A stretch of DNA of 64,000 nucleotides from Blastocatellia bacterium (GTDB lineage: Bacteria; Acidobacteriota; Blastocatellia; RBC074). Shown piece after piece: positions 40,119 to 63,900 of this stretch. Position 1 is the first letter of the stretch. Each line of letters begins with the position of its first letter. A program made the translations under genes and the position numbers. The stretch spans positions 10,296 through 74,295 of the forward strand of contig JAXLQQ010000014.1 of assembly GCA_046331525.1 (NCBI GenBank), read 5' to 3'. The notes under the pieces were generated by a model. That model worked only from the letters and a program-made list of their open reading frames with translations. It ran no database searches and had not been told where the DNA came from.

Positions 40119-41399
40119 CGTGACCAACGTTTCCTGCAATATTCCGCAGCCCAACGATTCCTCTTCCTTACACCTTTTATATTGCAACTCGAAAGATTCA
40201 AGACCAAGCAAAGAGCAGCAAAAAAGGCCGGGAACGATTGCAGTTTCCCGGCCACCAGTAGGTTCAGTATGTCTAAGGAGATTCTTAGAAGGTAAGTTTT
40301 ACAGCCAATTGTACGTGCCGACGACCGCTGCGAATAACGGGAACAAAGCCTGTCGAACTAATGTCCGTTTCGCCATTCAACACAAAGTCATTAGTGTGAT
40401 TGAAGAGATTGAAGAATTCGCCCCGGAATTGCAGCCCTACATCTTCCGCCAATTTGAACCGCTTCGAGACGCCCATATCGATATTCCAGAAACGAGGCCC
40501 CTCAAAGAAATTCCGGCTGGTCGTGCTGGTCGAAAAAGGTGCAAAGCCCGTGTTAACAATCGCCGCGTTGCCCGCCGTCAATCCACTCAGGTCAATGAAA
40601 TTGAAGCGGTTTGGGAATCCGGCCACTGCTGTTGGATCATTCGTGCCAAATTGATTCACGGCACCGGTCAAGGCAACACGCGGGCAGGGCGTTTCGGCAT
40701 TTGTGATGCCTGCACAATTGAACACGCTGAAAGGCGTGCCGCTTTGCACGTTGAAAATGCCCGTCAATTGCCAGCCACCGAATATTTGGCGTGAGATCGC
40801 CGTGCCGGTACCGCCAAAGAAGCGGTCGCCGATTTTTTCAAACGGCACTTCCCAATTGAAGCTTGCAATAAAACGATGGCGGATGTCATAGTCCGACCGC
40901 CCGTAATCATTGCCTGGATCAAAGGGTGCGAGTTGATTAACACCAAACGTGTTCAGTCCCCCAAACCCAAATTGTGAACCAACGTTATCCAAAGATTTTG
41001 CATAACGGTAACGCGCCGTGAATTGCAACCCGATTTGCCGCCAGGTGCCAGCCCAGTGACCGTCAGCCGGGTCTGACGCCGTTATTTTGCAGGGTTAATT
41101 GGCCCAAACGCGCAGGGCGAATGCCATAAGCGCCGCCGTTGCTGCCGCCCACAGCACGCGAGCCCGGGCGATCTGCATTACGCAGCCAGGCAAAACAAAG
41201 CGCAGGTCCCGGAATGCCGTCACAAACCGCGCCGGGTCATTCAAAATCGGCGTTACGTTCCAGCGAATGCGCGCGCGAGCTGGCATTGTCGCCAACGAAT
41301 ATGCGCGGGCGCGAAAGCCCGGGTGGTCAGCAGCGCGCGCGCCACGTCCAGCGACAAACGGCTTCCAGATACGCCTGAGCGGCAGCGTTACCAGTACCA

Positions 41400-43055
41400 G
41401 TGCGGGTAAGGTTAATGAGGCACTGGCGGAAGTCACCTGGTGCTGAGAAATGGGTATCCACAACATCACCAGGAACTGGTCACGTGGTGGATGCCATAGC
41501 TGCTGTGCAATTACAAGGTCTTGGTCATCATTCTGTTTAACCATCTCCATATTATTGAGTGGTAAATGTTATTCACCATTGATCACAGTTCCACTGTGTC
41601 CTCCTGTGCCGGACCTGAAATGCCCAGCAAGGAATCTGTGCTGCTGGGCCATGTCTGTCAAAAGCTCCATAGGAAGTTCGATAAAATCACTGAGGGCAGC
41701 AGCACACCAGCAAACATCAAAATTTCAAAAGCCCCAGTCAGCATTGACAGCGAGGGTGCAAAAAGGAATGCTTTGGAAGGAATCATCTAATCAGGCTGAT
41801 TCAAAACAAAGGATGGTTGCTTATTCAAGGCCCAGATTGCCTGTCCTGGACACCAAACCAGCATTCCATCCTGCCCCATGCCACCGGTCCTGGGCACCAA
41901 CACACAGTGCCCTGTGCCTGGTGTCATGGGGGCCTGGGTGACAGGAATGGCCGGTTAGGAGTTTGAGCAGTGAGCATCCTGTGCGCGGCAGTGAAGGCTC
42001 CACTGCTAATAATTGCTGTTCCTACCAAGAAACCCAGTTGCTCAAACTTATTGAGAACAATTTAACAAACCACCAGATTTGAGGTCAGCAGAACAAATCA
42101 GCAGAAATGGGGCCATGAGTTCTTCCTGCACAGTTCCTGCAAGAAAGCAAAGCAAAGAGAATGCACCATTTATCAGGCCATGCTGATTGTTAGCCCCTGC
42201 TGTGCTGAGCTGTTGCTCATGTAATCCCAGGTCCAGTTCGAGGTTGGGAGGATCCCTTGGGCCAGGAGTTCAAGAGGCTGGCCAACGTAAGAAGGAAGTT
42301 CTCCCAAAAGCCGGGCGCGGAGTCATGCAGCAGGTGGCAACAAACTTCCCTTGAGAGCCAAGGTGAAGGTGTAATCCAAATGTCCAGTCAAGCTCAGGCC
42401 TGTATCCAAAGGAAGCTCAGCCCAAGTCTGCTGTTGTCTGGGGAATTGAGAGTGCTGCTTCCAGAGCCCACAGAGGCCAGAAATGGCTGCCTGCAGGAGC
42501 ACACATCCCAGAGAAGGGCGAATGCTGACTGCACAGTGGCTCTCCAGCTTCAGCGGGGAGCACGCAGGAAAAGGCAGCAGATGCTGCATTGCAGGCCTGC
42601 TGAAGCTGCCAGCACTGAAGGCCATGCTCCACCTGAGTGACCTGGCTGAGCACAGAGAGGAGTGCTGAGGGGAGACGCAAAGAAAACAAACTCAGAGTCC
42701 AAATGAGTTTCCACAGAAGGCAGCAGAATGAACACATCACACTGAGTGTCCAGGAAATGCTGAAGCATTCCCAGTGCTGTTGCTGGAGCCTGTTAGCAGC
42801 AGAGACAGCAGCAGTGACCAGCAGTACCACAAGCTGCCCGGCCACAGGGGAGCTGGGGCTGGGGCTGAGTGCTGCCCCTTCAGCAGGCCCAGAGAGGCTC
42901 AGCAGACGGCGGAGAAACTGCCTTGTTGCATCTGACCCCTCTTTGTACTGGCATCTGAAGAGAAACCAGCCTGTCTCAGGCATGGAGCCAGGGACCAGAC
43001 AGCGCGGCCTCCCCGTCCACTGTATGAGTGACAGTGGCTGGTGCTGCCCACACGG
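41400..43055. other. CpG-depleted, vertebrate-like DNA segment (probable contaminant/chimeric sequence)
   Basis: Hand count: about 23 CpG in 41461-43050, against 9 in 41101-41160. CTG/CAG/CCAGG-rich texture. No ORF with flank-like composition. Contains an Alu-like stretch. Confidence 0.7.
42215..42440 (+). mobile_element. diverged Alu / 7SL-derived SINE-like sequence
   Basis: GCTCATGTAATCCCAGG...GGGAGGATCCCTTGGGCCAGGAGTTCAAGAGGCTGGCCAAC...AAAAGCCGGGCGCGGAGTCATGC...CTTGAGAGCCAAGGTGAAGGT is colinear with the Alu consensus as I recall it. Recognised from memory only. Confidence 0.5.
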
Positions 43056-43856
43056 GGCCCGCTGATGGAGTAAGCAATGTCGCGTTGCCCACCGATACCA
43101 TTGGGATTCGTCGTTTGGGTCACGTTGCCAGAGAGGGTGACCAGATCATACGGATCGCGGGTAATAGTGGGCAATTCCCGAATCTGACGACCGGAAATCG
43201 GATCGGAAAGTTGTTGCGAAGCGGTATTGATTTCAACGCCGCCGCTGCCTTCCACAACCTCCTGATTTTCTGTAACTGGATTTACCGAAAGCTGTGTTTC
43301 CACCCGCCGCGCGGCCCCGACTGAAACGCGGACACGTTGTGTTCGCGGTGCGAACCCTGTGGATTGCACTTGTACATCGTAAAGCCCCGGCTGTAAGCCA
43401 CTGACCAAATAAAATCCGCCGCTGTCTGTGGTCGCGTCACGCACGATTCCAGTGTCAGCAGATTTTACTGTTACAGCTGCGCCAGGGATTGCGGCTCCGC
43501 TTTGGTCAGTGATTTTGCCCGCGATTTGCCCCGCTTCACTCTGTGCCCAAACAGCACAACAAAAAGCAATTAGCAGTAGCACGCCGGGCATCAGGCGGCT
43601 ACGGCAAAAGGAAAGAGATGGCGAAAGATCTATCATTTTTTGACCTCCAAAGGAATATCACCGGCCAGATGTCGGTATGACATCTGTACCATTCAATCTT
43701 GTAATGAGGGAATCTTAGCGTTTGCGGGGAGAACTGGTACGAAGCAAGCGGCAGACCAACTTATTGCGAAAGGAAAGAAGAAAGCTTACTCGTGACAGTT
43801 AATAAGGAGGATTTAATTGTCTGCATCAAACGACTTGTAAAGGCATTGCCAAGGAA

Positions 43857-44819: not shown

Positions 44820-45080
44820 CCCAGTAAGTATAGGTTAGACCAACAGCATTCCTGTTAGTTGCCTAAAAATTGTTTGATCGAATCGTTGCAGGAAGGTGAG
44901 TTTAGGTGTAGCAATCTTTGCATCAGGGCAGTATCTGCTACGGCCAGCAGGCTAGAGCAAGCAAATGAAGATTGTCAAGAAAAGAACTGTAATTGGCCTA
45001 TTTCTAATATTAAAAACGAGGGCCAGGCGATTATAAAACTACTTTGAGCTAGAATGACGCTACTCAGGAAGGATACAAAA

Positions 45081-45134
45081 ACTGATCAGGCAAACTATCG
45101 TCTTCCCCCGTGAACAATAGTTTGTCTGATCAGT
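45081..45134. repeat. 18-bp-stem hairpin in the lower-G+C intergenic region
   Basis: ACTGATCAGGCAAACTAT (45081-45098) pairs with ATAGTTTGTCTGATCAGT (45117-45134) with one mismatch. Contains GGCAAAC / GTTTGTC. Confidence 0.6.
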
Positions 45135-45579
45135 GCGGCTTCCTCATATTAGGACCAGGAAGTACACTCCCCAATGCACTCCTTCGGATGGCCTGCAGAC
45201 ACCCGCTCCACATACAAGGTTAGCTATAGTCGAAAAATGACTACACCCTCTCCAAGCAAGCTTGATGCCATAAACCCTCTTGCTCGTAATTAACTGGCCA
45301 ACCGCTATAACTTTGTAGAGTTGCCTTATTACCCCCCTTCATTTTCCGATAAGTAGCAGTGAGACGCTCATCATAATTTAAGCATTTCGCCAGCGATTTA
45401 GTACAAGTTAGTCCAACTAAGATTATTCATACTGTTTCATCGCAGAACGAAAAGTACGATTTAAATACACATAACTGCTAGTTGCGCAGACACAAGGTCT
45501 GAGCAAGCGGACGAAACGCCTATCGCCTGGCCTAGGATTTGCCCTAGCTTTTACGACCACTAAGCCGGAGGAATAAATT

Positions 45580-45759
45580 ATGGCGAATCAAATTGATCTT
45601 GTTTGCGGAACACCAATCTCTGCACAAACAAACGTGCAATCAGAATATTTGGGGCAAATCTATTATTTTTGCTCCGAAGGTTGTAAGCATAAATTCGATC
45701 AACGGCCTGAGGATTACCTAGTCAAAGGGCAGAGTTCTTCAATAGCAACAGACCCCTAG
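45580..45759 (+). CDS. YHS domain-containing small protein
   Basis: 59-aa ORF, below the ORF-track cutoff. GGAGGA RBS 8 nt upstream of the ATG. MANQIDLVCGTPI...GQIYYFCSEGCKHKFDQRPEDY matches the YHS/TRASH pattern. Confidence 0.7.
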   Translation: MANQIDLVCGTPISAQTNVQSEYLGQIYYFCSEGCKHKFDQRPEDYLVKGQSSSIATDP

Positions 45760-46108
45760 CACGACTGATCCATAAATTAATGTCTGTGGGGAATAATTCA
45801 ATTACTAAAGAGCTGAGCAGACAAAATGCTTGCCGTTTTCCTTCACTCCTTGCAGTAAAGATACGTTTGTACTTTACGCGGGAACAGAAAGTAATTCGAC
45901 CTATTAGAATAACACCTTCTGGTATGGTGTTTGCTGCGGTCACGCTTGCAACGGTGCAGGCAAAGTTCGTTTTGGATGAAGCCATCGCCGTCTCGTTTTC
46001 AATGCAAATAAGTATAAAGGAGGCTAGCAAAATTTATTAGCTGCACTCTTTATCATCAGCTTTTGTCCATTGAAATCTTGATACTGAGTAAAAAAGGATG
46101 ACGAAATT

Positions 46109-60973: not shown

Positions 60974-63900
60974 TCAAAACGTAAAGCGGAATTGCAACTG
61001 CACACGCCGATTGCCGCGCTTCGTAATCACTTTGCCGAAATTCTGATTCGTCGTGTCGTTGAAGACGTAGCCTTTCGACGGATCGCACACATTTGTCACC
61101 GTACCGCCCGTGCCGTTCGGGGCGCTGGCGGCGCGCACGTTACAAGTGGTTTGCAGTGTTAGGTCGATGTCTGCTTGCCGCGTCACGAAGGCTTGATTGA
61201 AGATATTGAAGAAACCCGCGCGAATCTGGATGTTCTTGCTTTCCTTGAAACGGAAGTTCTTCATCAGCGTCATATCGTGATTGTTGCGGTTCGGCAGGCG
61301 AATATAAAACGGCGATTGGTACGCGCCCGATTCCCCAAAGTTCGGAATGCCGATGGCAGAGACATCAAAGAGTTTATCGCCGACCTTCGCGCCGCTGCCT
61401 GCGATTTGCGGATTGCGCAGCAGAATTGGCGCAATGCCGCCGATGTTGGTCGCGCCCGCGCCCGCAAAGGCGTTCGTGCCGAACCACGATTGCCACGCAT
61501 TCGTGGATTGCAACGAATTACCCGTGCCCGTGCCAGAACCGCCAGAGAAGAAAATGCGAATCGGCGCGCCGCTCTGATAGGTCGAAATACCTGACAATTG
61601 CCAGCCATTCAGGAAGCCGCCGGTCAGCTTATTGCGAAACGCGCCGCGCGCCAGGTTCGGCAAATTGTAGTTGTAATTCACCACAAGGTTATGCGTGCGG
61701 TCATACGTCTGCACGCCGTAGGAGCGATTGCGCGCATCCAGCGGGTCATTCGTTCCGCCGTCGCCGCCGAGAATGCCCAATGCTTTCGAGAAGGTGTAAG
61801 CAGCGGTGTACGTCAGCCCTCGGCTCTGTTGCCGCGACAAGGTCAATTGTCCCGAATGATACGACGACGTGCCGACGTATTCGCGAATATTGATGCCGTT
61901 GTAATCGGGATAGGGCAACAAGGAGCGAAACGCTTCGGTCGAAAGCGCCATCCGATTGATCGGATTCGACAAATCCACGACCTGCGTGCCGGACGTGATC
62001 GTGCCTTTCAGCAAGGCACCAATCGGCACGACATTCAGGTTGCGCACTTGCGGCAGGTGGCGCACCTGATTACCGACGTAGCCGACTTCCAGCACGTTGC
62101 CCCACCACAAACGCCGCGCGAGCGAAAAGCTGCTGTTCGCGGTGCGTGTTGGTGTCACGCCGTCAGGATTGATGGAAACCGGCGTGATCGAAAGCGGCAC
62201 GCGCGCCAAATCCACTTGATTCAGCCGCGCCAATGTCAGATCGGCGATGCCGTCTTTGTACGCAGAAGCCGTCGAAGTCGAAGTGACAGTCGGGTTGATA
62301 AAGTTCGGTGCGTTTTGCAGCGCGGGCGAGTATTGGAAGTTGCCTTGCGAACGGTTGTAGAACAAGCCATAGCCGCCGCGCACCACGAAATTCCCCTTCT
62401 TCGACACGTCCCACGCGAAGCTCACGCGCGGTGCCATTTGCGGTTTGGGATCAGGCACGATGCCCGGCTTGGCTTGTCCGCGCGACACCAGCGCAATGCC
62501 GTTGGGCTTTTGCAAATCGCCGTTGATGAACGCGCCCGCGCCCTTCTGATATAAGTTCGGATCGAACCACGTTTCATAGCCGTTGCGTTCCTTGTTGTTC
62601 GGAATGCCAACAACGCGCAGGCCATATTCAAACGTCAGGTTTGATTTCAGCTTCCACGAATCCTGTGCGTAAGCATCAATGTTGTAGGCGCGAAATTCGC
62701 CTTCGGGCGTAAAGTTGGATTGTTGCACCGAGCCAGGGCGACCGATATACAAATTGCCAAACGGATTGCCGGTGCCGTTCGTGATCGTGTTCAGTGTGAT
62801 AACCCCGTTGTATTGGTTGCCGAGGTTTTGCTTTTTGTTCACTTGTTCGAGCAGACCGCCGAATTTGTAGGTGTGTGCGCCTTTGATTTTGGTCACGTTC
62901 GAGTTGACCGAATAGCTGGAATTAAAGGCAAACAGCGGCGTTTCGCCCTGATTATTGCCGACCTGATTCAGACTCAATCCGGCGCTGAACCCGCTCAAAA
63001 TCAAGCGCGGCGCGCTCTTGCCCAAATAGCCGAACGGTAATTTCAAATTGCTCAGCCCCAGCGCCTGCGGCGAGACTTTGTTGTAATCAATGTATTCGTG
63101 ATAAAGCTTCAACTTGCTCGCGCTGAACACAACTTCCATCGTTAAGGAAGGATCAAAAACCGTCACCATATTCACCGCTGCCGAACGTCCGATGTGGTCG
63201 CCGTTCGTGTGGCTGTACAGCTCAGTCATCGAACTGCGGCCCCACACGCCATAGGCAAATTCTTCGTCTTCCTTCTCGCGGGCGAGTCGCGCATAGAGAT
63301 TCGTGCGGTCGCTGACTTTGTAATCCACGCGCAGTTTTTGATCCGTGCGATCCAGCGGCAACGTCGCGCCCGAAACGTAATTGAACCGTCCGGTCGGGTC
63401 GTTGTAATTTGGCTGTGGGAACAGCTTGTCGAGAATCGTTGGCCCCAGATTCGTCGCGTCTTTGAAAGGGTTCAGATTGAAGTTATTGGAAACCAGACTT
63501 TGCCCGACCGTAAACCCCGCAGGGGGTTGTTGCGGCACGGTCAGCGTGCGGTTTTGCAGCAGGTACGTCGTCGTACAACCGGTCGGATTGCCAATGTTCG
63601 CACATGGCAGAAATTCGCTGAAATCGCCCTGGCGTTGTTTGGCCGTGGGCACGACGCCAAATACGACGTCATTCGTGTTGCGCTGGCGTTGAAATTCCAG
63701 ACCGTAGAAAAGAACAACCCGATCTCTGGTTTTATCGCCGCCCAAAAACGACGGCAGCTTAACGGGGCCGCCGAGGTTGCCGCCCGTATAATACTGCGAC
63801 GTTTCGGGGCGTCCGAGGCCGGAGTAATTGCGCGCGCGGTCGTTCGCATTCAAATGCTGGTTGCGCGCGTATTCATATAAACTGCCGTGAAACTGTTTGC

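What the first reader, a model, noticed from the sequence alone, without database searches (positions are those of the whole stretch)
41400..43055. About 1.65 kb of CpG-depleted, vertebrate-like DNA (with an Alu/7SL-SINE-like stretch) inside a bacterial outer-membrane receptor gene
The sequence changes character abruptly here. My hand count gives about 23 CpG in 41461-43050 (roughly 1 per 70 nt), against roughly 1 per 7-10 nt in the flanks (for example 9 in 41101-41160). The segment is rich in CTG/CAG/TGCTG/CCAGG strings, and its ORFs (for example 42417-42983 and 41450-41941) have no bacterial-like composition. Positions 42215-42330 read GCTCATGTAATCCCAGG..GGGAGGATCCCTTGGGCCAGGAGTTCAAGAGGCTGGCCAAC..AAAAGCCGGGCGCGGAGTCATGC. 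That is colinear with the left monomer and linker of primate Alu elements as I remember the consensus (GCTCACGCCTGTAATCCCAGC..GGAGGATCGCTTGAGCCCAGGAGTTCAAGACCAGCCTGGGCAAC..TTAGCCGGGCGTGGTGGC). Both edges fall within one TonB-dependent receptor gene. The most parsimonious explanation is host/human contamination joined in by assembly, or a chimeric or engineered record. A genuine eukaryote-to-bacterium transfer would be extraordinary.
Basis: partly seen in the sequence, partly recalled or inferred. Interest (0 to 1): 0.8.

Follow-up and report, generated by a model that had tools for sequence, protein, structure and literature searches.

The report
Vertebrate-like DNA patch in bacterial MAG
A 1.6-kb stretch that looks like mammalian non-coding DNA replaces the middle of an outer-membrane receptor gene in a deposited soil-bacterium genome; it is most likely contaminant DNA joined in during sequencing or assembly, not a real animal-to-bacterium transfer.

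Summary
Window 41417-43052 holds 24 CpG (o/e 0.21), where the host rate predicts about 148. Its dinucleotide signature lies far outside every other 1.6-kb stretch of the window. An 80-nt piece (42209-42289) aligns to a published Alu-J consensus above all null models, but Rfam's 7SL/SRP model does not detect it.

The block is in the NCBI record, a Blastocatellia MAG contig of 87,519 nt. Two annotated "proteins" are translations across its junctions.

It is not a simple insertion. The receptor keeps its first ~195 and last ~250 residues, and about 1.5 kb of its middle is missing. In its place are the CpG-poor block and a 370-nt GC-rich, bacterial-like block with no receptor homology. There are no terminal inverted repeats, transposase, adapters or recognisable coding sequence.

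No vertebrate genome library was available, and searches of the other collections found nothing. Some of those negatives are weak because candidate lists were capped. The species of origin is therefore unproven.

Best reading (about 0.68): contaminant primate-like DNA joined in by library or assembly error. A genuine integration is not excluded (about 0.08), because the flanks are colinear and a 9-nt repeat sits at both edges. Mapping reads across the junctions would decide it.

The parts
43052..43636 (-). N-terminal fragment of a TonB-dependent receptor: signal peptide, CarboxypepD_reg domain and the start of the plug, about 195 codons.
   Evidence: Pfam PF13620 matches at E=1.3e-20. tblastn with the relative's protein (residues 18-192) covers 43582-43052 at 64% identity.
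42899..43636 (-). Annotated chimeric ORF (NCBI MFN7927962.1, 245 aa). Its last ~50 residues are read from the CpG-poor block, so this is a spurious fusion protein.
   Evidence: P0001 is identical to the window ORF over all 245 residues.
41417..43052 (.). CpG-poor, CAG/CTG-rich, vertebrate-like non-coding block of 1636 nt.
   Evidence: CpG o/e 0.21, TpA o/e 0.32 and CA/TG 1.60. Dinucleotide distance to the host is 0.309, against a host maximum of 0.149. No Pfam, NCBIfam, PDB or protein-database relative was found for its ORFs.
42209..42320 (+). Alu-J-like stretch. 42209-42289 aligns to Alu-J positions 9-101, and a colinear 11-mer GCCGGGCGCGG lies at 42310-42320.
   Evidence: The local alignment to the published Alu-J consensus (PMC5218400) scores 47, against null maxima of 29-34. 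blastn finds a core at 42246-42289 with 79% identity over 48 nt. Rfam gives no SRP hit.
41047..41416 (.). GC-rich (0.63), CpG-rich (o/e 1.31) bacterial-like block with no receptor homology. Its origin is unknown: it may be native DNA or come from another bacterium.
   Evidence: No tblastn match to the relative's receptor at E<=10. No Pfam or NCBIfam hit in any frame and no period-3 signal. Its dinucleotide signature is host-typical (0.113 against a host mean of 0.121), but its GC is in the top 0.6% of host windows.
41095..41550 (-). Annotated hypothetical protein (NCBI MFN7927960.1, locus tag U0Y68_08430, 151 aa). It spans the junction between the GC-rich and CpG-poor blocks and is most likely a spurious ORF.
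   Evidence: Exact look-up. It is a singleton cluster and has no family hit.
40285..41046 (-). C-terminal fragment of the same TonB-dependent receptor: the last ~250 codons of the beta-barrel. Annotated as MFN7927959.1 (U0Y68_08425) at 40285-41028.
   Evidence: Pfam PF25183 matches profile positions 621-821 of 838 at E=8e-43. tblastn with the relative's residues 419-672 covers 41046-40288 at 57% identity. Exact look-up.
41437..41445 (+). Left copy of the 9-nt direct repeat CTGGTGCTG, near the left edge of the CpG-poor block.
   Evidence: The chance of such a shared 9-mer between the two edge windows is about 3%.
43038..43046 (+). Right copy of the 9-nt direct repeat CTGGTGCTG, near the right edge of the CpG-poor block.

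Best explanation
The CpG-poor block is non-coding DNA from a CpG-methylating amniote genome, probably a primate and most plausibly human contaminant DNA. It is not part of the Blastocatellia chromosome. It entered the deposited contig while the metagenome-assembled genome was made, through chimeric molecules or reads, or through an erroneous path or gap fill across a poorly covered stretch of the receptor gene. Gene calling on the resulting contig then produced spurious proteins.

Shown here:
- the compositional break and its edges;
- the loss of the middle of the receptor;
- the absence of any mobile-element or coding feature;
- the presence of the block, and of ORFs read from it, in the NCBI record.

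Inferred:
- the amniote or primate origin, from composition and a short Alu-J-like match;
- the artefactual join, from base rates and context, not from reads.
For: **Composition.**
- CpG o/e is 0.21 with CA/TG 1.60 at 53% GC.
- The dinucleotide distance to the host is twice the largest seen anywhere else in the window.

**Alu-like stretch.**
- It scores 47 against a published Alu-J consensus, above all nulls (maximum 34).
- It includes the Alu-type fusion ...GAGTTCaAGA..GGCTGGCCAAC.
- It shows CG>TG and CG>CA changes at consensus CpG sites.

**No sign of coding sequence.**
- The 188-aa ORF has 0 relatives among 1.84 billion representative proteins.
- Exon-like segments gave no hits.

**No sign of a biological insertion mechanism.**
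- There are no terminal inverted repeats, transposase or tRNA.
- The receptor is destroyed rather than neatly interrupted.

**Source.**
- The source is a MAG contig.
- The only independent assembly of the same strain is ENA ERZ773281 NODE_215879, coverage 1.74. It is 100% identical to window 40174-40807.
- That contig is itself chimeric within the same gene. At window position 40807 it switches to an unrelated pheA-like sequence at a 13-nt microhomology.

**Base rate from the literature (PMC6581058).**
- Human sequence was found in 2250 prokaryotic assemblies.
- Most of the long scaffolds that carry human repeats were judged misassembled.
- A 'false chimera' protein spanning a join between microbial DNA and a human Alu is documented there.
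Against: - Both flanks are the two ends of the same gene, in the same orientation, within a syntenic neighbourhood. Random chimeras rarely return to the same locus, so a specific process such as gap filling or a bubble path is needed.
- PMC6581058 reports contaminants almost only in small contigs, whereas this one lies inside an 87.5-kb contig.
- A 9-nt direct repeat lies at both edges of the block (chance about 3%). This could point to a microhomology-mediated event in real DNA.
- No adapter or linker sequence is present at the junctions.
- Origin is unproven. No vertebrate genome library was on hand, and Rfam's SRP model does not detect the Alu-like piece.
- TpA o/e of 0.32 is lower than the genome-wide vertebrate value I remember (about 0.7).
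Confidence: 0.68

Rival explanations
1. The integration is genuine. A Blastocatellia lineage suffered a break in a dispensable receptor paralogue, lost about 1.5 kb by resection, and captured environmental DNA. The repair would be by non-homologous end joining or microhomology-mediated illegitimate recombination. The captured DNA would include a 1.6-kb fragment of animal DNA and possibly the 370-nt GC-rich piece. That lineage then dominated the sampled population.
For: - The flanks are colinear, in the same orientation, and belong to one gene in a syntenic context. This is the expected footprint of a deletion plus filler insertion.
- The 9-nt repeat CTGGTGCTG sits at both edges.
- The junctions carry no adapters.
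- The block lies inside a long contig.
- There are precedents. A 685-bp human L1 fragment sits in Neisseria gonorrhoeae genomes (PMC3042738). NHEJ captures heterologous DNA at breaks in Sinorhizobium meliloti (PMC6379672).
Against: - The prior for animal DNA in a soil bacterium is extremely low.
- No independent assembly carries either junction. The N-terminal ORF cluster has one member, and the nearest other relative is 64% identical.
- The record is a MAG.
- A chimeric contig of the same strain exists elsewhere.
- The result has no plausible function.
- Competence and NHEJ genes in this organism were not examined.
Confidence: 0.08
2. The CpG-poor block was joined in by error but is not primate or vertebrate DNA. 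It would come from some other CpG-depleted source present in the sample, such as another animal, another methylating eukaryote or a virus of such a host. The Alu resemblance would then be a chance or convergent match.
For: - No vertebrate match could be obtained with the tools on hand.
- The Rfam SRP model finds nothing.
- The Alu match is only about 80 nt at about 75% identity with five indels.
- The match does not extend into a right monomer, an A-rich linker or a poly-A tail.
- TpA o/e 0.32 and CA/TG 1.60 are more extreme than typical vertebrate averages (the averages are from my own knowledge).
Against: - The strict alignment score of 47 exceeds 600 null sequences of Markov order 1-3, whose maximum is 34.
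- The match covers the Alu-specific fusion of the 7SL 5' and 3' parts.
- CpG o/e of about 0.2 at 53% GC is typical of amniotes and rare elsewhere (established knowledge).
Confidence: 0.15
3. The block is not a copy of any natural DNA. It would be sequence produced by the pipeline itself, for example poor long-read signal base-called into human-like k-mers, or an erroneous local gap-fill assembly.
For: - Nothing matched in any collection searched.
- Alu-like motifs are partly out of order downstream of 42320.
- The triple CpG in GCCGGGCGCGG is intact, although the rest of the element is about 25% diverged.
- The dinucleotide values are more extreme than vertebrate averages.
Against: - The sequence is complex, not low-complexity.
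- The collections searched hold essentially no vertebrate DNA. For example, a canonical 34-nt Alu string has 0 hits in the viral collection. The negatives therefore say little.
- I know of no documented pipeline artefact of this kind.
Confidence: 0.05

Closest known systems
Human or host contamination and false chimeric proteins in prokaryotic assemblies (Breitwieser et al. 2019, PMC6581058)
   Same: Vertebrate-like, repeat-bearing DNA lies in a bacterial record. ORFs across the join are annotated as bacterial proteins and have entered NCBI (MFN7927960.1, MFN7927962.1). That paper documents an analogous chimera protein spanning a join between microbial DNA and an Alu.
   Different: Those contaminants are almost all separate contigs under 10 kb, or pieces joined to a contig end, and consist mostly of high-copy repeats. 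Here a largely unique 1.6-kb block lies inside an 87.5-kb contig, with both flanks belonging to one gene. Identity to human DNA was not tested.
nL1: a human L1 fragment integrated in Neisseria gonorrhoeae (Anderson & Seifert 2011, PMC3042738)
   Same: A stretch of mammalian non-coding or repeat DNA lies within otherwise colinear bacterial sequence.
   Different: nL1 is 98-100% identical to human L1 and is present at the same site in many cultured isolates of an obligate human pathogen that is naturally competent. Here there is one MAG of a soil-type acidobacterium, no independent confirmation, no identified source sequence, and a 1.5-kb loss of target sequence.
Alu / free left Alu monomer (7SL-derived SINEs of primates)
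   Same: Window 42209-42289 is colinear with Alu-J positions 9-101. This includes TGTAATCCCAG, GGGAGGATC.CTTG and the fusion GAGTTC.AGA..GCCTGG.CAAC. GCCGGGCG.GG follows at the position of the start of the right monomer.
   Different: Identity is only about 75% with five indels. There is no significant right monomer, no A-rich linker or tail, and no flanking duplication. The covariance model for SRP RNA does not detect it.
NHEJ-mediated capture of heterologous DNA at chromosomal breaks (Dupuy et al., Sinorhizobium meliloti, PMC6379672)
   Same: It would give the observed footprint of a deletion at the break, filler DNA of unrelated origin, and no transposon features.
   Different: It has been shown only in the laboratory, with supplied DNA. 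Nothing here shows that it operated, and Ku/LigD and DNA uptake in this organism were not examined.

Membership tests
Vertebrate (CpG-methylating) genomic DNA | Strong CpG depletion with compensating TpG/CpA excess at moderate-to-high GC | tested here: met
   CpG o/e is 0.21 and CA/TG o/e is 1.60 at GC 0.534. The lowest CpG count elsewhere in the window is 58 per 1600 nt, against 22 here.
Vertebrate (CpG-methylating) genomic DNA | High-identity match to a sequenced vertebrate genome | not testable with these tools
   No vertebrate genome library was on hand. Searches of plasmids, phages, E. coli genomes, JGI metagenomes, GTDB genomes, IMG/VR and the protein collections all found nothing. The pattern scans were capped at 600 candidates and one search missed a known self-match, so these negatives are weak.
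Alu / 7SL-derived SINE | Sequence similarity to the Alu consensus beyond chance | tested here: met
   The local alignment scores 47, against null maxima of 29-34 (Markov orders 1-3), using the published Alu-J consensus. It covers window 42209-42289 = Alu-J 9-101.
Alu / 7SL-derived SINE | Fold and sequence of the 7SL Alu domain, as detected by the Rfam SRP covariance model | tested here: not met
   No SRP-clan hit at E<=1 over 40900-43300, or at E<=10 over 42150-42420.
Alu / 7SL-derived SINE | Dimeric structure with an A-rich linker, right monomer, poly-A tail and flanking target-site duplication | tested here: not met
   The permissive alignment into the right monomer scores 110, within the null range (maximum 113). 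No A-rich linker or tail is visible in the sequence.
Alu / 7SL-derived SINE | RepeatMasker or Dfam classification | not testable with these tools
   No repeat library was available.
TonB-dependent receptor (CarboxypepD_reg + plug + OMP_b-brl_4 barrel) | N-terminal CarboxypepD_reg domain and C-terminal barrel end | tested here: met
   PF13620 matches at E=1.3e-20. PF25183 matches profile positions 621-821 of 838 at E=8e-43.
TonB-dependent receptor (CarboxypepD_reg + plug + OMP_b-brl_4 barrel) | One continuous ORF with a full plug and barrel | tested here: not met
   No receptor homology between 41047 and 43051. The relative's residues 193 (N-terminal part) to 418 (C-terminal part) have no counterpart. 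Stop codons occur in every frame.
Insertion sequence / transposon insertion | Terminal inverted repeats, a transposase gene and a target-site duplication around an otherwise intact target | tested here: not met
   No terminal inverted repeats and no family hit for any ORF. About 1.5 kb of the target is missing. Only a 9-nt direct repeat lies near the edges, with a chance of about 3%.
Genuine eukaryote-to-bacterium transfer (as for gonococcal nL1) | The same junctions present in independent isolates or assemblies | tested here: not met
   The junction-spanning ORFs are singleton clusters from this one NCBI record. The nearest other N-terminal relative is 64% identical. The only same-strain contig elsewhere (L004) does not reach the junctions.
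Genuine eukaryote-to-bacterium transfer (as for gonococcal nL1) | Reads or PCR spanning both junctions at chromosomal depth | not testable with these tools
   No read data were accessible.

The most novel reading that the evidence does not exclude
An uncultured soil acidobacterium (Blastocatellia) really carries 1.6 kb of primate-like non-coding DNA in its chromosome. It would have been captured at a double-strand break in a dispensable TonB-dependent receptor gene by end joining or microhomology-mediated repair, with 1.5 kb of the gene lost. This would be the first animal-to-bacterium DNA capture seen outside an obligate human pathogen.
Probability: 0.08. Interest if true: 0.85.

Novelty: not a real feature. 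Interest (0 to 1): 0.27.

Why it matters
As an artefact, it matters for database hygiene. At least two spurious proteins from this join are in NCBI: MFN7927960.1, and the false fusion MFN7927962.1, which is named 'carboxypeptidase-like regulatory domain-containing protein'. A receptor gene of this MAG is also misrepresented. The case shows that contaminant DNA can hide inside long MAG contigs, where filters based on contig length do not catch it.

If the join were real, it would be a rare documented case of animal DNA fixed in a free-living bacterium. It would also be direct evidence that environmental DNA can be captured at chromosomal breaks in nature.

Tried and rejected
**Cloning vector, E. 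coli, plasmid or phage origin.** Rejected for both blocks. There were no megablast or blastn matches.

**7SL/SRP RNA or another known RNA.** No Rfam hit was found. The only match at E<=10 was a chance-level mir-3618 hit (E=2.5).

**A protein-coding gene or vertebrate exon in the block.**
- The ORFs and an exon-like segment (41572-41724, minus strand, with splice-site-like borders) gave nothing in Pfam, NCBIfam, PDB or the 5.8-billion-protein set.
- The 188-aa ORF gave nothing in the exhaustive 1.84-billion-protein search.
- Relevant calls: 11, 49, 61-63, 67.

**An unreliable search.** I disregard it.

**Source locus or independent copies in public collections.**
- Peptide-pattern scans for both blocks found nothing in JGI metagenomes or GTDB genomes. 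Each stopped at about 600 candidates, so these are weak negatives.
- IMG/VR also had nothing.

**Independent assemblies of the junctions.** Exact-protein look-ups found none.

**Transposon, integron or phage insertion.** There are no repeats, integrase or tRNA.

**Sequencing adapters or linkers at the junctions.** None were found.

**The GC-rich block as an inverted or frameshifted piece of the receptor.** No tblastn or Pfam signal appeared in any frame.

**The GC-rich block as a vertebrate CpG island.** This is unlikely. Its CpG o/e is 1.31-1.39 and its dinucleotide signature is bacterial and host-like.

**Mirror-image synthetic spike-ins.** Rejected, because reversing a sequence would deplete GpC rather than CpG, and GpC o/e here is 1.23.

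**Literature on the accessions.** A search for ERZ773281, U0Y68 and MFN7927962 found nothing.
Full report
**1. The observation**

- Over the whole window, a 1600-nt stretch holds a median of 144 CpG. The minimum is 22, starting at 41387, and the lowest value anywhere else is 58.
- Per kilobase, 42001-43000 has CpG o/e 0.16, against about 0.9-1.6 in nearly all other kilobases. GpC o/e stays normal at 1.32.
- A Markov-1 change-point analysis places the edges at 41417 and 43053.
- The block 41417-43052 (1636 nt, GC 0.534) has the following composition:
  - 24 CpG (o/e 0.21), where the host rate predicts about 148;
  - TpA o/e 0.32 and CA/TG o/e 1.60;
  - 86 CTG+CAG per kb, against 36-39 per kb in the flanks.
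- Its dinucleotide distance to the rest of the window is 0.309. Host 1.6-kb windows give 0.071 +/- 0.023, with a maximum of 0.149. The anomaly is real and unique in the window.

**2. Where the window comes from, and whether the block is in the record**

- The ORF 42899-43636 (-) is identical over all 245 residues to NCBI MFN7927962.1. That entry is named 'MAG: carboxypeptidase-like regulatory domain-containing protein [Blastocatellia bacterium]' and sits on a contig of 87,519 nt.
- The last ~50 residues of that protein are translated from the CpG-poor block.
- ORF 41095-41550 (-) is MFN7927960.1 (U0Y68_08430). ORF 40285-41028 (-) is MFN7927959.1 (U0Y68_08425).
- The block is therefore part of the deposited metagenome-assembled genome, and spurious proteins have been derived from it.

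**3. Anatomy**

- On the minus strand, 43636-43052 encodes a signal peptide, a CarboxypepD_reg domain (PF13620, E=1.3e-20) and the start of a plug.
- 41046-40285 encodes the last ~250 residues of an OMP_b-brl_4 barrel (PF25183, profile positions 621-821 of 838, E=8e-43).
- A relative at 64% identity was found in three records: JGI 3300005529, GCA_035652435.1 and Logan SRR5581483 (loci L001-L003). It has the orthologous receptor next to the same TPR-like gene and, further off, MlaE/ABC genes.
- tblastn with that relative's receptor matches window 43582-43052 (its residues 18-192) and 41046-40288 (residues 419-672 of its second part). Nothing matches in between.
- Roughly 460-500 codons (about 1.5 kb) of the receptor are therefore missing. 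In their place are 2005 nt made of two parts:
  - **41047-41416.** GC 0.63, CpG o/e 1.31. It has no receptor homology, no family hit in any frame and no period-3 signal. Its dinucleotide signature is typical of the host (0.113 against a mean of 0.121), although its GC is in the top 0.6% of host windows.
  - **41417-43052.** This is the CpG-poor block.
- This is a replacement, not a simple insertion. The left edge of the CpG-poor block does not touch the receptor.

**4. What the CpG-poor block is**

- It has no coding signature:
  - Its ORFs have no Pfam or NCBIfam family.
  - The longest ORF (188 aa) has no relative among 1.84 billion representative proteins.
  - Exon-like segments found nothing in the PDB or in the 5.8-billion-protein set.
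- It is not vector, E. coli, plasmid or phage DNA.
- The combination of CpG o/e about 0.2 with TpG/CpA excess at 53% GC is what methylated amniote genomes show (established knowledge).
- For the Alu claim I used a published Alu-J consensus (PMC5218400):
  - A strict local alignment covers window 42209-42289 = Alu-J 9-101 and scores 47. The maxima over 600 null sequences of Markov order 1-3 are 29-34.
  - blastn finds a core at 42246-42289 (79% identity over 48 nt). Colinear 11-mers lie at 42220-42230 (TGTAATCCCAG) and 42310-42320 (GCCGGGCGCGG).
  - The match includes the Alu-type fusion of the 7SL 5' and 3' parts. Several consensus CpG sites read TG or CA.
- There are limits to the Alu match:
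  - It spans about 80 nt at about 75% identity, with five indels.
  - A permissive extension into the right monomer is not above the null (110 against a maximum of 113).
  - There is no A-rich linker or tail.
  - Rfam's SRP model sees nothing even at E<=10.
- No vertebrate genome or repeat library was available. 'Primate-like' is therefore an inference, and 'human' is a guess.
- TpA o/e of 0.32 is lower than the genome-wide vertebrate value I remember (about 0.7). This is unexplained.

**5. How it got there**

- There are no terminal inverted repeats, transposase, integrase, tRNA or adapters.
- Evidence for an artefact:
  - The source is a MAG.
  - The base rate favours it (PMC6581058). Human sequence was found in 2250 prokaryotic assemblies. 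Most long scaffolds carrying human repeats were judged misassembled. A false fusion protein across a join between microbial DNA and an Alu is documented there.
  - The only other assembly of the same strain is ENA ERZ773281 NODE_215879 (coverage 1.74). It is 100% identical to window 40174-40807.
  - That contig is itself chimeric inside the same gene. At window position 40807 it switches to an unrelated pheA-like sequence across a 13-nt microhomology.
- Evidence against a trivial artefact:
  - The two flanks are the two ends of one gene, colinear and in a syntenic setting. Random chimeras rarely return to the same locus.
  - The block lies inside a long contig.
  - A 9-nt direct repeat, CTGGTGCTG, lies at both edges (41437-41445 and 43038-43046). 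The chance of this is about 3%.
- A gap fill or a wrong path across a weakly covered stretch would explain the colinearity. So would a real deletion with filler capture, for example by NHEJ as shown experimentally in S. meliloti (PMC6379672). The gonococcal L1 fragment is a natural precedent (PMC3042738).
- I put the artefact at about 0.68. An erroneous join of DNA from some other CpG-depleted source is about 0.15. Genuine integration is about 0.08, and pipeline-generated sequence about 0.05.

**6. Comparison, novelty and verdict**

- The closest known category is host or human contamination giving false chimeric proteins. This case differs in being internal to a long contig and flanked by one gene.
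- Membership in 'Alu' is only partly met: sequence similarity yes; structure model, dimer and tail no.
- Membership in 'genuine host-to-bacterium transfer' fails the one criterion I could test, because no independent assembly holds the junctions.
- As a feature of the organism it is most likely not real, so the interest is low to moderate. It is worth flagging to the database. A read-mapping check is cheap and would settle the small chance of something extraordinary.

**7. Caveats on the negative searches**

- The concatenated protein query hit the candidate cap and missed a known self-match, so I ignore it.
- The four pattern scans of metagenome and genome collections stopped at about 600 candidates.
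- None of the searchable DNA collections is expected to hold much vertebrate DNA. A canonical 34-nt Alu string has no hit in IMG/VR.

Noticed in passing
L004 1-1161 (ENA ERZ773281 NODE_215879, coverage 1.74); window 40174-40807: A low-coverage contig from another public assembly is 100% identical to the window for 634 nt. At window position 40807 it switches to an unrelated 61%-GC sequence encoding a prephenate-dehydratase-like peptide (...IPVENSLIGRIAD), across a 13-nt shared string CGGCACGGCGATC. This is a second, independent chimera inside the same receptor gene.
   Followed up: partly
L001 10001-12870 (also L002 and L003): In the 64%-identical relative, the orthologous receptor is called as two overlapping genes (284 + 672 aa). 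The tail of the first looks out of frame, so this is a frameshift or pseudogene. The three records may derive from one sample, so they may not be independent.
   Followed up: no
window 41095-41550 (-) and 42899-43636 (-): NCBI proteins MFN7927960.1 (hypothetical) and MFN7927962.1 (named as a carboxypeptidase-like regulatory domain protein) are translations across the junctions of foreign blocks. They are spurious database entries. MFN7927961.1 presumably also lies in the block but was not identified.
   Followed up: partly
window 41437-41445 and 43038-43046: The 9-nt direct repeat CTGGTGCTG occurs near both edges of the CpG-poor block. Two 60-nt windows of this composition share a 9-mer about 3% of the time. 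Its meaning (microhomology, something like a target duplication, or chance) is open.
   Followed up: partly
window 44820-46108: This is a 1.3-kb stretch of low GC (about 0.43) with almost no long ORFs, lying between the TPR gene and a hemerythrin-like gene. It holds a 59-aa ORF (45580-45759) with a YHS/TRASH-like Cys motif (my reading by eye, not tested).
   Followed up: no
window 61160-62689 (-): A second, distant TonB-dependent receptor paralogue (24% identity to the relative's barrel) lies here and appears intact over the matched part.
   Followed up: no
window 41572-41724 (-): A 51-codon open segment (…SDFIELPMELLTDMAQQHRFLAGHFRSGTGGHSGTVING) is bordered by splice-acceptor-like (ctgccctcag|) and donor-like (|gtgaat) strings. 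It has no homologue in the PDB, Pfam or the large protein set, so it is probably chance.
   Followed up: yes
All peptide-pattern scans stopped at about 600 candidate stretches. Negatives from these calls are weak.
   Followed up: yes
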